From the NCBI RefSeq assembly GCF_011045215.1, contig NZ_CP049201.1: 64,000 nt of DNA, one strand, 5' to 3'. Positions 42,797 through 44,064 of this stretch are shown here, piece after piece; position 1 is the first letter of the stretch; every line of letters begins with the position of its first letter. Under the pieces are notes generated by a model. That model ran no database searches and had not been told where the DNA came from. It saw nothing but the letters and a program-made list of their open reading frames with translations. This DNA comes from Escherichia coli. GTDB taxonomy: Bacteria; Pseudomonadota; Gammaproteobacteria; Enterobacterales; Enterobacteriaceae. Position numbers and translations under genes: made by a program.

Positions 42797-42820
42797 ATAA
42801 AAAAGGGCCTCTGTCGGCCC
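42797..42820 (-). terminator. Rho-independent terminator ~15 nt upstream of the holin RBS
   Basis: Minus strand: GGGCC-GACAGA-GGCCC followed by UUUUAUU. Confidence 0.6.
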
Positions 42821-43277
42821 GTAAAAAAACACCCCGTCAAAGGCACCCGCAGATACCTTTTGTGTGGTGTTATCTGGTGTTTTCTGGTGTGGTGTGTGCA
42901 GGACACAGATGTGAAAAAGGTCCGCTGGTACGAACCCTGTATATGGATAAAAAAATGCCCGTCAGGAGACGGGCCAGAGCATTCATCGTGTAGTAATAGA
43001 ATTATATTTATATATGGTCGCCACCAGAATGAGTCGTCAACCTACAAAGCCATCCTGGCTTACTGTACGTGTGCGCATGGAACAGGTAACGACTCATTCT
43101 GCTAACGACGTTTACAAGTAATAATCACATACCATTATGTAATACAAAAAAAAGCAGCACTGAAACTGTAACCGTTCAGATATTACAGCATGAAGAAAAA
43201 CAATAGTACCTACAAAGCTGTTCTCCGCGAAAATTCGCCAGTGCTGATAAAGCTATGCCTCGTTTGTTTTACAGGAG

Positions 43278-43349
43278 AGCGGGTAGCGGGAATCGAACCC
43301 GCATCATCAGCTTGGAAGGCTGAGATAATAACCATTATACGATACCCGC
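43278..43349 (-). tRNA. tRNA-Gly (anticodon UCC), phage-encoded, no encoded CCA
   Basis: Minus strand GCGGGTATCGTATAATGGTTATTATCTCAGCCTTCCAAGCTGATGATGCGGGTTCGATTCCCGCTACCCGCT folds as cloverleaf; anticodon loop CUUCCAA; resembles T4 tRNA-Gly. Confidence 0.8.
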
Positions 43350-43352
43350 ATA

Positions 43353-43428
43353 TGGTGCCGACTACCGGAATCGAACTGGTGACCTACTGATTACAAGTCA
43401 GTTGCTCTGCCTGCTGAGCTAAGTCGGC
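43353..43428 (-). tRNA. tRNA-Thr (anticodon UGU), phage-encoded, CCA encoded
   Basis: Minus strand GCCGACTTAGCTCAGCAGGCAGAGCAACTGACTTGTAATCAGTAGGTCACCAGTTCGATTCCGGTAGTCGGCACCA; anticodon loop CUUGUAA; 3-nt spacer to tRNA-Gly. Confidence 0.8.
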
Positions 43429-43430
43429 GT

Positions 43431-43490
43431 TGGTTCCTCGGGAGTGAGATGAGATGCCCCGATACATAATGTATCATTCCCTCGGAACCA
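43431..43490 (-). other. Structured ~60-nt element (compound hairpin) just upstream of tRNA-Thr
   Basis: Outer stem GGTTCC...GGAACC plus inner hairpin GATACAT-A-ATGTATC; not a complete cloverleaf. Confidence 0.35.
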
Positions 43491-44038
43491 CAAAAATAAT
43501 ACTAATAAATAATCAGGATGCAATATTTACCAACTATGTAATTGTAAATTTGTTTGAATAAAAAAATTACTAAACACGCCATACCCCCCTAAAAAGGGGG
43601 TCGTAATAATATAAGTGATACTAAACATCACATTACTAAATACATTGTATTAAGCTGGCGACCCGATGCGTAATCCCTTGATATTAAAAACTCCAAACAA
43701 AATCAGAATGCCATCTAAATACACAAAAAGCTGGCTTCACACCACCCTGTATGTGAACGCAGAACTCATCACCCCACGCGCTTTCGCAGCCAGTACACAA
43801 CCTGTGTCAAACGCTGGCAGATGAACAATGAAACTGCCAGCACGGTCACCTATCTTAGTTCGCGTCTCGCATTCTGCTTGATAATAAGTTTCCCGTTCTT
43901 CTCTTATTGTGCATTTCTCAGTTTATCTGTCAGTAGCATTTTGACATACCAATAATTCCTGTCGAGAAAATCAGTGAGCTAAAAAACCGTATTCACAGCC
44001 TCGGGCACGTTTAACGTACCGCACCACTTTTCGGGCGT

Positions 44039-44064
44039 AAAAAAACCCGCATTAAGCGGGTTTT
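44039..44064 (-). terminator. Rho-independent terminator ~80 nt downstream of Q (candidate tR-prime)
   Basis: Minus strand: CCCGC-UUAAU-GCGGG followed by U7. Confidence 0.65.

What the first reader, a model, noticed from the sequence alone, without database searches (positions are those of the whole stretch)
42797..44064. Two intrinsic terminators bracket the late leader
A strong terminator lies ~80 nt downstream of the Q-like gene (44039-44064), and a second lies only ~15 nt upstream of the holin RBS (42797-42820) after the tRNAs. Expression of lysis and structural genes therefore needs read-through of at least one, probably two, terminators, consistent with Q-type antitermination. The short distance between Q and the first terminator implies that the late promoter overlaps the 3' end of Q or that the first hairpin precedes it.
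Basis: partly seen in the sequence, partly recalled or inferred. Interest (0 to 1): 0.4.

Follow-up and report, generated by a model that had tools for sequence, protein, structure and literature searches.

The report
Prophage late-gene antitermination control region
This is the normal late-gene switch of a lambda-like prophage in E. coli: a Q-type antiterminator gene, its promoter, a short terminated leader RNA, two tRNA genes with their own promoter, and a row of further terminators guarding the lysis genes; it is ordinary in kind, though this Q subfamily's leader has not been described.

Summary
Both hairpins are real and at the stated coordinates. T1 (44064-44039) has a CCCGC/GCGGG stem and U7. 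T3 (42820-42799) has a GGGCC/GGCCC stem and U6, 6 nt before the holin Shine-Dalgarno.

The upstream gene is a DUF1133 protein, a distant Q21-family antiterminator and the same family as Gifsy-1 AntQ.

A conserved promoter-like block lies between Q and T1:
- -35 TTGATT, containing the Q stop codon
- an almost invariant 17-nt spacer
- TG-extended -10 TTCAAT
- predicted start at A44113

The predicted product is a 75-nt RNA with a 5' hairpin plus T1. It sits where IsrK sits in Gifsy-1 but is not an Rfam isrK member (19 bits against a cut-off of 50). The block occurs in 1787 of 5426 complete E. coli genomes.

"Two terminators" is an undercount:
- T2 (42974-42949) is the best-formed.
- A hairpin-U7 at 42869-42823 sits just before T3.
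- A weaker one lies at 42936-42914.

The tRNAs have their own conserved promoter. The downstream terminators therefore probably also stop unmodified transcription from entering the lysis genes.

Everything functional is inferred; the -10 lacks the consensus A. Ordinary architecture, new member of a known kind.

The parts
44145..44687 (-). Q-like antiterminator gene (180 aa, GTG start; DUF1133 / AntQ type, distant Q21 family)
   Evidence: Pfam DUF1133 E = 6e-106 and PF06530 at 26.4 bits against a cut-off of 26. PHROG 753 'anti-termination protein Q-like' E = 2e-78. A profile of 20 family members has Q21 (6p18, 6jnx) as top PDB hit at E = 6e-5, aligning the helix-turn-helix region.
44143..44148 (-). 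Predicted late promoter -35 hexamer TTGATT; contains the Q stop codon TGA (44147-44145)
   Evidence: Read from the sequence. TTGnnT is kept in all 52 distinct alleles. The IsrK-type relatives show the same layout, TTGACT over the stop codon. A promoter upstream of isrK is shown by lacZ fusions (PMC4825925).
44120..44142 (-). 17-nt spacer TTTTACGTACAAACTGC (candidate Q-binding element) and TG-extended -10 TGCTTCAAT (44128-44120)
   Evidence: The spacer and hexamer are nearly invariant across alleles, while the next 6 nt vary freely. The -10 lacks the consensus A at position 2 and the tool scan did not call it. That the spacer holds the Q-binding element is inferred from phage 21 (PMC6606751).
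44039..44113 (-). Predicted 75-nt leader RNA, from +1 (A44113) to the end of the U-run
   Evidence: Folds into two independent hairpins, -28.2 kcal/mol, z = -3.5. Length is 74-78 nt in 36 distinct relatives. Only 19.1 bits to Rfam isrK against a cut-off of 50.
44085..44113 (-). 5' hairpin of the leader (arms 44113-44105 and 44093-44085, loop AAAGCTGTATC)
   Evidence: 99.6% of cells paired in 33 distinct sequences. One pair changes on both sides (C-G to U-A in the window's lineage) with a U.G intermediate. Four of 8 pairs never vary. The loop is also nearly invariant, so DNA-level or pause-related constraint is equally possible.
44039..44064 (-). T1 = tR'-type intrinsic terminator (A4, CCCGC, TTAAT, GCGGG, U7); the finding's first hairpin
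   Evidence: The core stem is never broken in 36 distinct leaders. Four one-sided changes all keep wobble pairs, four sequences carry a C-G to A-U double change, and at least 10 loop sequences occur.
43496..43523 (-). Predicted promoter of the tRNA operon: TTGCAT, 16 nt, TATTAT
   Evidence: A TTGnnn-16-TA(T/A)TAT arrangement is kept in at least 7 otherwise unrelated upstream alleles. The counterpart in phage vB_EcoS-683R6 was called by the tool scan (TTGCGA-16-TATTAT, 9 of 12).
43432..43489 (-). Conserved long stem between the tRNA promoter and tRNA-Thr (GGTTCCGAGGGA ... TCCCGAGGAACC)
   Evidence: Present in all allele groups with compensating changes (for example L210, GGCTC ... GAGCC). Function not tested; possibly a precursor-processing stem.
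43277..43428 (-). tRNA-Thr(UGU) 43353-43428 and tRNA-Gly(UCC) 43277-43349
   Evidence: ARAGORN. Rfam tRNA at 69.8 and 65.4 bits.
42949..42974 (-).
   Evidence: -14.9 kcal/mol, z = -3.8, 0 of 200 shuffles. Weak, sub-threshold resemblance to the 3' part of AgvB (22.4 bits against a cut-off of 56).
42914..42936 (-). T2b: weaker terminator-like hairpin GGTTCG/CGGACC plus U5
   Evidence: -8.1 kcal/mol. The counterpart GGCTCGC..GCGGGCC plus U5 recurs in many relatives and lies after the tRNAs in phiP27.
42823..42869 (-). Hairpin A (AAAGGTATC/GGTGCCTTT, with outer CACC/GGTG) followed by U7; sits in tandem just upstream of T3
   Evidence: -17.0 kcal/mol for the extended structure; -11.4 kcal/mol, z = -1.5 for the inner hairpin alone. 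The sequence block is conserved upstream of the holin in most of 54 alleles and upstream of a lambda-S-type holin in phage vB_EcoS-683R6.
42799..42820 (-). T3: GGGCC, GACAGA, GGCCC, U6; the finding's second hairpin
   Evidence: Present 23-26 nt before the ATG in 47 of 55 alleles by strict criteria, about 53 of 55 counting weaker forms. The stem is invariant and 6 loop variants occur. Present in phiP27.
42391..42792 (-). Shine-Dalgarno AGGAG (42792-42788) and holin gene (ATG 42780)
   Evidence: Pfam PF16931 E = 4e-22. PHROG 198 holin E = 1.5e-41.
41576..42401 (-). Second holin-family gene (42123-42401) and GH108 / PG_binding_3 endolysin (41576-42121)
   Evidence: Pfam PF05449, PF05838 and PF09374.
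41537..41565 (-). Further terminator-like hairpin plus U-run immediately after the endolysin gene, still upstream of the terminase genes
   Evidence: (9 pairs, AAAGGTCGC/GCGGCCTTT). The late operon continues on this strand with terminase, portal, head and tail genes.

Best explanation
This is the late-gene control region of a lambdoid prophage integrated in an E. coli chromosome. All steps below are inferred unless marked otherwise.

1. The early operon ends with a Q-type antiterminator of the DUF1133/AntQ subfamily, a distant relative of phage 21 Q.
2. A sigma-70 promoter (pR') overlaps the end of the Q gene. Its -35, TTGATT, contains the stop codon. Its -10 is TG-extended TTCAAT.
3. In the lysogen, this promoter makes only a roughly 75-nt RNA, consisting of a 5' hairpin, a linker and the T1 terminator. 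This RNA corresponds to lambda 6S RNA, StxS and Gifsy-1 IsrK.
4. After induction, Q binds the promoter spacer and loads onto RNA polymerase paused in the first 25 nt or so. The conserved A-rich hairpin loop is the candidate pause element.
5. The modified polymerase then ignores T1 and every later terminator, and transcribes the holin, endolysin, terminase, head and tail genes.
6. Between T1 and the holin lies inserted 'moron' DNA: a tRNA-Thr/tRNA-Gly operon with its own promoter.
7. T2, T2b, hairpin A-U7 and T3 therefore have two roles. They are extra barriers to unmodified polymerase from pR'. They also stop transcripts from the tRNA promoter from running into the lysis genes of a lysogen.
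For: Q identity:
- Pfam, PHROG and PDB-profile hits.
- Relatives of this protein at 70-87% identity are followed by RNAs that pass the Rfam isrK threshold (71-75 bits). IsrK lies directly downstream of antQ, whose product has reported antiterminator activity (PMC4825925).

Promoter:
- The block from TTGnnT to +28 is conserved in 52 distinct alleles. It is kept even where it lies 30, 69 or 100 nt beyond the stop codon, so coding constraint does not explain it.
- The 6 nt between the -10 and +1 vary freely, as expected for a discriminator.
- The IsrK-type relatives have the same geometry, including the stop codon inside the -35.

Terminators:
- Folding statistics.
- T1 is kept at +74 to +78 in 51 of 52 alleles, with varied loops, an unbroken stem and a C-G to A-U double change.
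- Sequence after T1 is mosaic, so T1 is the end of the Q-linked module.
- T3 is kept before the holin in about 53 of 55 alleles whatever lies upstream: tRNAs, stx2e in phiP27, LT-IIb in SerU, or other ORFs. It is also kept before a different holin family.

Other:
- tRNA promoter conserved across unrelated alleles.
- Late genes lie downstream on the same strand.
- Strong terminator-like sites are enriched in the leader.
Against: - No transcript, start site, pause or termination efficiency has been measured.
- The proposed -10 (TTCAAT) lacks the near-universal A at position 2. The promoter scores only 8 of 12 and was not called by the consensus scan.
- No Q-binding direct repeat like that of phage 21 (TGAGCA twice) is evident in the spacer, and no clear -10-like pause element was found.
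- T1 and T3 have only 5 G-C pairs each, so either may be leaky.
- Covariation support is thin. Most stem positions are simply invariant, which says nothing for or against structure.
- One group of Q genes with a recognition helix of the IsrK type nevertheless carries this leader class, so the Q-to-promoter pairing is not simple.
Confidence: 0.75

Rival explanations
1. T1 is the terminator that ends the early (Q-containing) operon, and the true late promoter lies downstream of it.
For: The proposed pR' has a poor -10 and was not found by the consensus scan. That scan lists two promoter-like sites downstream of T1 on the minus strand: 43965-43938 (TCGACA-16-CAAAAT, with TG) and 43933-43906.
Against: A Q protein needs a cognate promoter linked to its gene. 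The only sequence that travels with this Q gene across 52 alleles is the block upstream of T1. Everything after T1 differs between alleles. The sites at 43965-43906 exist only in the window's closest relatives. In Gifsy-1, an experimentally shown promoter lies upstream of isrK, downstream of antQ.
Confidence: 0.07
2. The promoter-hairpin-T1 unit is mainly an autonomous small-RNA gene, like IsrK or StxS acting in trans. The DUF1133 protein is not the switch for the lysis and structural genes.
For: IsrK and StxS, which occupy the equivalent position, have trans-acting functions (PMC4825925, PMC7547250). The leader is very widespread, in 1787 of 5426 E. coli genomes with up to 5 copies per genome. 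The linker carries a conserved ACAGACATGRAC motif of unknown role.
Against: The two roles are not exclusive; StxS and IsrK are themselves by-products of antitermination control. The gene order Q, leader, lysis, terminase, head, tail is the canonical late operon. No other strong promoter for the late genes was found.
Confidence: 0.1
3. T3 and hairpin A are not transcription barriers. They are parts of the holin mRNA's 5' untranslated region that act after transcription (stability, or translation timing of the holin), or they are 3' ends of separate small RNAs.
For: The block is tightly linked to the holin start (6 nt from the Shine-Dalgarno) and is conserved as sequence, including unpaired parts such as the CA-rich stretch. 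T3's stem is short. Anti-sRNAs are known from the moron site downstream of pR' (PMC4104026).
Against: Both structures have the full terminator form, a G+C stem directly followed by 6-7 U. The T3 loop varies while stem and U-run are fixed. Without such stops, the conserved tRNA promoter upstream would drive lysis-gene transcription in lysogens. No Rfam small-RNA family reaches threshold here or in 19 related loci.
Confidence: 0.15

Closest known systems
Phage lambda Q / pR' / 6S RNA / tR' late-gene antitermination cassette
   Same: Same order: Q gene, then a promoter, a short terminated transcript, then lysis and structural genes on one strand. The logic is the same: a probably constitutive promoter and processive read-through of many terminators.
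   Different: The Q protein is unrelated in sequence to lambda Q (Pfam PF03589). The leader is about 75 nt rather than 194 nt. The -35 overlaps the Q stop codon. No Q-binding element or pause element has been identified.
Phage 21 Q (Q21/Q933W family, Pfam PF06530; structures 6P18, 6JNX)
   Same: Detectable homology: PF06530 at its cut-off, and a profile-to-PDB E-value of 6e-5 covering the N-terminal WLxGxLxxWGxW motif and the helix-turn-helix. Its Q-binding element lies in the promoter spacer, which is where this leader is most invariant.
   Different: Identity is very low. The loop between the two DNA-binding helices is about 12 residues shorter. The TGAGCA direct repeat of phage 21 is absent. 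The structure model was too poor to compare folds.
Gifsy-1 AntQ - IsrK (Salmonella; Rfam RF01394)
   Same: Same Q family. DUF1133 genes 70-87% identical to the window's are followed by bona fide IsrK. The geometry matches: stop codon in the -35, a 6-nt variable discriminator, a hairpin starting at +1 with an A-rich loop, a terminator, and total length 75-77 nt.
   Different: The sequence differs: only 19 bits to the isrK model against a cut-off of 50. There is no second internal hairpin. What follows is tRNAs and lysis genes, not orf45-anrP. The promoter hexamers and spacer are unrelated (TTGACT-18-TATATT).
Stx-phage late region (pR' - StxS - tR' - tRNA genes - stx - lysis genes)
   Same: tRNA genes and other morons are inserted between pR'/tR' and the lysis genes. 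The pR' transcript is terminated early in lysogens (PMC7547250). phiP27 and SerU-LTIIb share the hairpin A-T3-holin block with the window.
   Different: No toxin genes here. The tRNAs are Thr and Gly rather than Ile and Arg. The Q is of a different subfamily. The pR'-to-tR' distance is 75 nt rather than 258 nt.
AgvB / AsxR prophage anti-sRNAs (Rfam RF02702)
   Same: They occupy the same moron site downstream of pR'. T2 shares the GCCCG...CGGGC-A-U6 terminator form of their conserved 3' part.
   Different: The score is far below threshold (22.4 against 56). No member reaches threshold in 19 related loci. The nearby CA-rich stretch is not unusually complementary to the GcvB seed.

Membership tests
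Q-dependent late antitermination cassette (lambdoid) | Gene homologous to a known Q family | tested here: met
   PF06530 at 26.4 bits against a cut-off of 26. DUF1133 E = 6e-106. PHROG 753 E = 2e-78. Profile against Q21 PDB chains E = 6e-5, top hit.
Q-dependent late antitermination cassette (lambdoid) | Promoter directly downstream of, and co-inherited with, the Q gene | tested here: inconclusive
   The conserved block TTGnnT-17-TGnTTCAAT is present in 52 alleles and matches the position of the promoter upstream of isrK. However, the -10 lacks A at position 2, the block was not called by the scan, and no start site has been mapped.
Q-dependent late antitermination cassette (lambdoid) | Q-binding element in the promoter | not testable with these tools
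   The spacer is nearly invariant, but no repeat like that of phage 21 is visible. A binding assay is needed.
Q-dependent late antitermination cassette (lambdoid) | Sigma-dependent pause element (-10-like) in the initially transcribed region | tested here: inconclusive
   Candidates by eye are AAAGCT (+10 to +15) and TATCAC (+18 to +23) in the conserved hairpin loop. IsrK-type leaders have CAAAAT at +8 to +13. None is a strong match.
Q-dependent late antitermination cassette (lambdoid) | Intrinsic terminator shortly downstream of the promoter, followed by lysis and structural genes on the same strand | tested here: met
   T1. Holins and endolysin. Terminase, portal, head and tail genes.
Intrinsic (Rho-independent) terminator | G+C-rich stem-loop immediately followed by a U-run; T1, T2 and T3 each tested | tested here: met
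   T1 has 5 G-C pairs plus U7. T2 has 7 pairs plus A-U7. T3 has 5 G-C pairs plus U6. z-scores are -4.3, -3.8 and -2.75. Activity was not measured.
IsrK sRNA (Rfam RF01394) | Score at or above the family's gathering threshold (50 bits) | tested here: not met
   19.1 bits, E = 0.2-0.4, over model positions 1-77 at 44040-44111. Leaders of related Q genes score 71-75 bits. The window's RNA is therefore a positional counterpart, not a member.
AgvB anti-sRNA (Rfam RF02702) | Score at or above the gathering threshold (56 bits); CA-rich seed complementary to GcvB R1 | tested here: not met
   22.4 bits at 42950-42999. Duplex energies with GcvB R1 are not among the best in the window.

The most novel reading that the evidence does not exclude
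The roughly 75-nt pR'-T1 transcript of this AntQ/DUF1133 leader class is unannotated, absent from Rfam, and present in a third of complete E. coli genomes including O157:H7. It may be a constitutively made prophage small RNA with a trans-acting role, as IsrK and StxS are. Its invariant hairpin at +1 to +29 may be part of the signal that loads Q, either as a hairpin-stabilised pause or as a pause element held in the loop. That would be a loading architecture different from those of lambda and phage 21.
Probability: 0.2. Interest if true: 0.55.

Novelty: new member of a known kind. Interest (0 to 1): 0.3.

Why it matters
This adds no new principle. It does give a concrete, testable map for a Q subfamily (DUF1133/AntQ) whose promoter, loading site and terminator have not been described. 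Databases still label this subfamily 'domain of unknown function', and it is very common in E. coli and Salmonella prophages, including those of O157:H7.

The map predicts an abundant unannotated 75-nt prophage RNA.

It also suggests that the stacked terminators in front of the lysis cassette are a conserved safety device. They would let prophages carry constitutively expressed cargo (tRNAs, toxins) upstream of their lysis genes without killing the lysogen.

Tried and rejected
- **Structure prediction of the Q protein.** The alignment was shallow (20 sequences) and the model poor (pLDDT 59). Foldseek against the PDB gave nothing below E = 1. No fold evidence either way.
- **Rfam.** No family reaches threshold in the leader apart from the tRNAs. 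Weak hits to Trp_leader (25 bits), P9, Leu_leader and sroH are driven by the terminator shape, and I reject them. I saw no alternative anti-terminator pairing in the minimum-energy or centroid fold, so a trp-type attenuator is unlikely.
- **AgvB-like anti-sRNA at T2 and an anti-GcvB role for the CA-rich stretch.** Both are sub-threshold, absent from 19 related loci at threshold, and the GcvB R1 duplex energies are unremarkable. Dropped.
- **Leader peptide.** An ATG at 44075 is conserved, but the ORF is 3 to more than 20 codons long and its sequence is not conserved across alleles. Rejected as a coding feature.
- **Plus-strand ORFs 43666-43824 and 43821-43955.** No PHROG hit. Treated as spurious.
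- **Alternative -10 hexamer (YAAACT, 44133-44128).** It has the consensus A and T but no -35, and it would put the variable 6-mer inside the RNA. Kept only as a caveat.
- **Does the putative recognition helix of Q predict the leader class?** It does not cleanly.
- **Formal pair counting for T1 on the MAFFT alignment.** Not possible, because loop-length differences shift the 5' arm by one column. I counted pairs with a script instead.
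Full report
**Setting.** The window is E. coli-type chromosome. It carries MicC, FnrS and the Rac-type RalA antitoxin RNA. It holds a lambdoid prophage from about 11.8 to 60.6 kb, with an integrase at 59354-60589 and a replication gene at 50347-51207. Transcription of the relevant genes runs on the minus strand. The order is:
- NinB-like DUF1367 (44974-45585)
- YbcO (44684-44974)
- a 180-aa DUF1133 gene (44145-44687)
- a 1.37-kb non-coding stretch with two tRNA genes
- holin (42391-42780), a second holin-family gene, and a GH108 endolysin
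- ParB-like gene, terminase small and large subunits, portal, head, tail and tail-fibre genes

The closest complete genome is E. coli strain C5, 98.9% identical over the leader. Only 3 of 5426 genomes hold the whole leader in this form.

**Checking the observation.**
- T1 reads AAAA-CCCGC-TTAAT-GCGGG-TTTTTTT at 44064-44039. It starts 81 nt after the TGA of the DUF1133 gene. It folds at -17 kcal/mol, z = -4.3.
- T3 reads GGGCC-GACAGA-GGCCC-TTTTTT at 42820-42799, at -11.6 kcal/mol, z = -2.75. Its U-run ends 6 nt before the AGGAG of the holin.
- The tool's consensus scan listed T3 but not T1. I think its stem extension consumed the U-run; it did find T1's counterpart in a related phage.
- The scan's raw count for the 4-kb region (7 found against 4.4 +/- 2.0 in shuffles) is not significant in itself.
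- In my stricter scan of the whole window, 12 hairpins on the minus strand are followed by at least 7 U in 8 nt. Four of them fall in this 1.37-kb leader, against about 0.26 expected (the arithmetic is mine and post hoc).

- T2 (GCCCGTC-TCCT-GACGGGC-A-TTTTTTT, 42974-42949; -14.9 kcal/mol, z = -3.8) is the best-formed terminator of the region.
- Hairpin A followed by U7 lies at 42869-42823, in tandem with T3.
- A weaker hairpin plus U5 lies at 42936-42914.

**What the upstream gene is.**
- It matches Pfam DUF1133 end to end and reaches the cut-off of PF06530. PF06530 is the Q21/Q933W family according to Yin et al. (bioRxiv 10.1101/651190).
- PHROGs calls it 'anti-termination protein Q-like'.
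- A profile of 20 family members finds the two phage 21 Q depositions as its best PDB hits at E = 6e-5. The alignment covers an N-terminal W-rich motif and the two helices that bind DNA in Q21, with a loop about 12 residues shorter.
- An AlphaFold model was too poor to use.
- The link to experiment is indirect but firm. DUF1133 genes 70-87% identical to the window's are followed immediately by RNAs scoring 71-75 bits on Rfam isrK, above the cut-off of 50. IsrK is described as lying directly downstream of antQ in Gifsy-1, whose product acts as a Q-like antiterminator (PMC4825925). AntQ is therefore a DUF1133 protein.

**Where the late promoter is.** I collected 240 prophage loci with relatives of this gene and compared what follows the stop codon.
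- Most carry the same block as the window, in 52 distinct alleles.
- The block reads: TTGnnT; a nearly invariant 17-nt spacer (TTTTACGYAYAAACTGC); TTCAAT preceded by TG; six freely varying bases; then an almost invariant A-YGCTTCGCAAAGCTGTATCGCGAGGCG; a variable linker; and a terminator.
- In the window this gives -35 at 44148-44143, -10 at 44125-44120 and +1 at A44113.
- The stop codon TGA sits inside the -35.
- The block is also kept where it lies 30, 69 or 100 nt beyond the stop codon. It is therefore an element in its own right, not a by-product of coding constraint.
- After the terminator the alleles become unrelated. The module that travels with Q ends at T1.
- The IsrK-type relatives have different hexamers (TTGACT-18-TATATT) but the same geometry, again with TGA inside the -35. 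A promoter upstream of isrK was shown by lacZ fusions.

The caveat is real. TTCAAT lacks the A at position 2 that nearly all sigma-70 promoters have, and the promoter scan did not call the site. The assignment rests on conservation and analogy, not on consensus strength.

**The leader RNA.**
- From A44113 to the U-run is 75 nt. In 36 distinct relatives it is 74-78 nt.
- It folds into a 5' hairpin starting at +1 and the T1 hairpin (-28.2 kcal/mol, z = -3.5).
- The T1 core stem is never broken across relatives. Four one-sided changes all give wobble pairs. Four sequences carry a C-G to A-U double change. At least ten different loops occur.
- The 5' hairpin is paired in 99.6% of cells. One pair is changed on both sides in the window's lineage, with a U.G intermediate. 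Half its pairs and its loop never vary. That speaks as much for a DNA-level or pause-related constraint as for RNA structure.
- The RNA is not an Rfam isrK member (19 bits) and matches no other family.
- The block occurs in 1787 of 5426 complete E. coli genomes, up to five times per genome, including O157:H7. RefSeq annotates nothing there except the DUF1133 gene.
- By analogy with phage 21, the Q-binding element would lie in the spacer (TGAGCA repeats between -35 and -10; PMC6606751) and a -10-like pause element in the first 25 nt. I could identify neither with confidence.

**What lies between T1 and the holin.**
- About 520 nt after T1 comes a second promoter-like site, TTGCAT-16-TATTAT (43523-43496). 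It is followed by a long stem (43489-43432) and then tRNA-Thr and tRNA-Gly.
- At least seven unrelated upstream alleles keep TTGnnn-16-TA(T/A)TAT and the stem, the latter with compensating changes. The tool scan calls the counterpart in phage vB_EcoS-683R6.
- The tRNAs therefore probably have their own promoter, on the same strand as the lysis genes and upstream of them. This gives the later terminators a job beyond backing up T1. They must stop unmodified polymerase coming from the tRNA promoter.
- The last roughly 95 nt before the holin (a CA-rich stretch, hairpin A, U-run, T3, U-run, Shine-Dalgarno) recur in most of 54 distinct upstream alleles, whatever precedes them: tRNAs, stx2e in phiP27, LT-IIb in SerU, or other ORFs.
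- T3 itself is present in 47 of 55 alleles by strict criteria and about 53 of 55 counting weakened forms. Its stem is fixed and six loop variants occur.
- The same tandem pair precedes a lambda-S-type holin in phage vB_EcoS-683R6. The pair belongs to the junction with the lysis cassette, not to one holin family.
- Further terminator-like sites follow the endolysin gene (41565-41537) and the major head gene (31232-31214). This fits a late operon that needs processive antitermination.

**Mechanism, and what is shown versus inferred.**
- Shown: the sequence features, their statistics, their conservation, and the family assignments.
- Taken from the literature: Q proteins load at a promoter-embedded site on a paused polymerase and make it ignore terminators. 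pR' promoters are constitutively active and yield short RNAs in lysogens (PMC7547250). AntQ has reported antiterminator activity and a promoter lies upstream of isrK.
- Inferred: this promoter is active; T1, T2, hairpin A and T3 terminate; this Q suppresses them; and the downstream set also insulates the lysis genes from the tRNA promoter.

**Verdict.** The finding is correct and its interpretation holds, with more terminators than counted and a modest rather than strong T1. The architecture is the ordinary lambdoid one. What is new is only the description of the promoter-leader-terminator module of a common, uncharacterised Q subfamily, and the conserved terminator pair in front of the lysis genes.

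Noticed in passing
window 43432-43523 (-): The tRNA-Thr/tRNA-Gly pair appears to have its own promoter (TTGCAT-16-TATTAT). A roughly 58-nt stem immediately precedes tRNA-Thr. Both are conserved across at least 7 unrelated upstream alleles, and the stem shows compensating changes. It may be a precursor-processing signal.
   Followed up: partly
window 42862-42895 (-); loci L245, L264: A CA-rich short tandem repeat (ACACCAGAAA / ACACCAGATA) lies just upstream of hairpin A. Its copy number varies between near-identical prophages: 2 in the window, 3 in L245, 4 in L264. Its complementarity to the GcvB seed was not exceptional.
   Followed up: partly
window 43025-43105 (-): A perfect 13-bp inverted repeat (CAGAATGAGTCGT ... 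ACGACTCATTCTG) enclosing about 50 nt lies between tRNA-Gly and T2. No family match, function unknown.
   Followed up: no
loci L202 2075-2273 and L104 1904-2104 (not in the window): In the IsrK-type relatives, the IsrK RNA overlaps an above-threshold hit to Rfam c4-a1b1 (targets of the P1/P7 C4 antisense RNA) and is followed by an above-threshold C4 antisense RNA hit. The Gifsy-1 isrK-orf45-anrP region therefore looks homologous to the P1 immI c4-icd-ant module. That could recast how IsrK activates anrP translation.
   Followed up: no
window 42340-42369 (-): A strong terminator-like hairpin with U7 (-14.2 kcal/mol) lies inside the coding sequence of the second holin-family gene. It may be coincidental, since the U-run encodes Leu-Phe-Phe.
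   Followed up: no
window 58855-59033, 59354-60589, 63343-63460: The RalA antitoxin RNA, an integrase and FnrS place this prophage at the Rac locus of E. coli. Unlike the defective Rac of K-12 (my recollection), it keeps a Q gene, a lysis cassette and a full structural operon.
   Followed up: partly
loci L176-L193: One group of DUF1133 genes has a C-terminal helix of the IsrK-associated type (CYATCRNRIDMWL) but carries the window's leader class. In this group the leader is displaced 100 nt from the stop codon. This suggests recombination within or just after Q, and an unclear rule for Q-to-promoter specificity.
   Followed up: partly
window 31214-31232 (-): A clean intrinsic terminator (GGGGAGC-TAAAT-GCTCCCC plus U6) lies directly after the putative major head protein gene, inside the late operon.
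   Followed up: no
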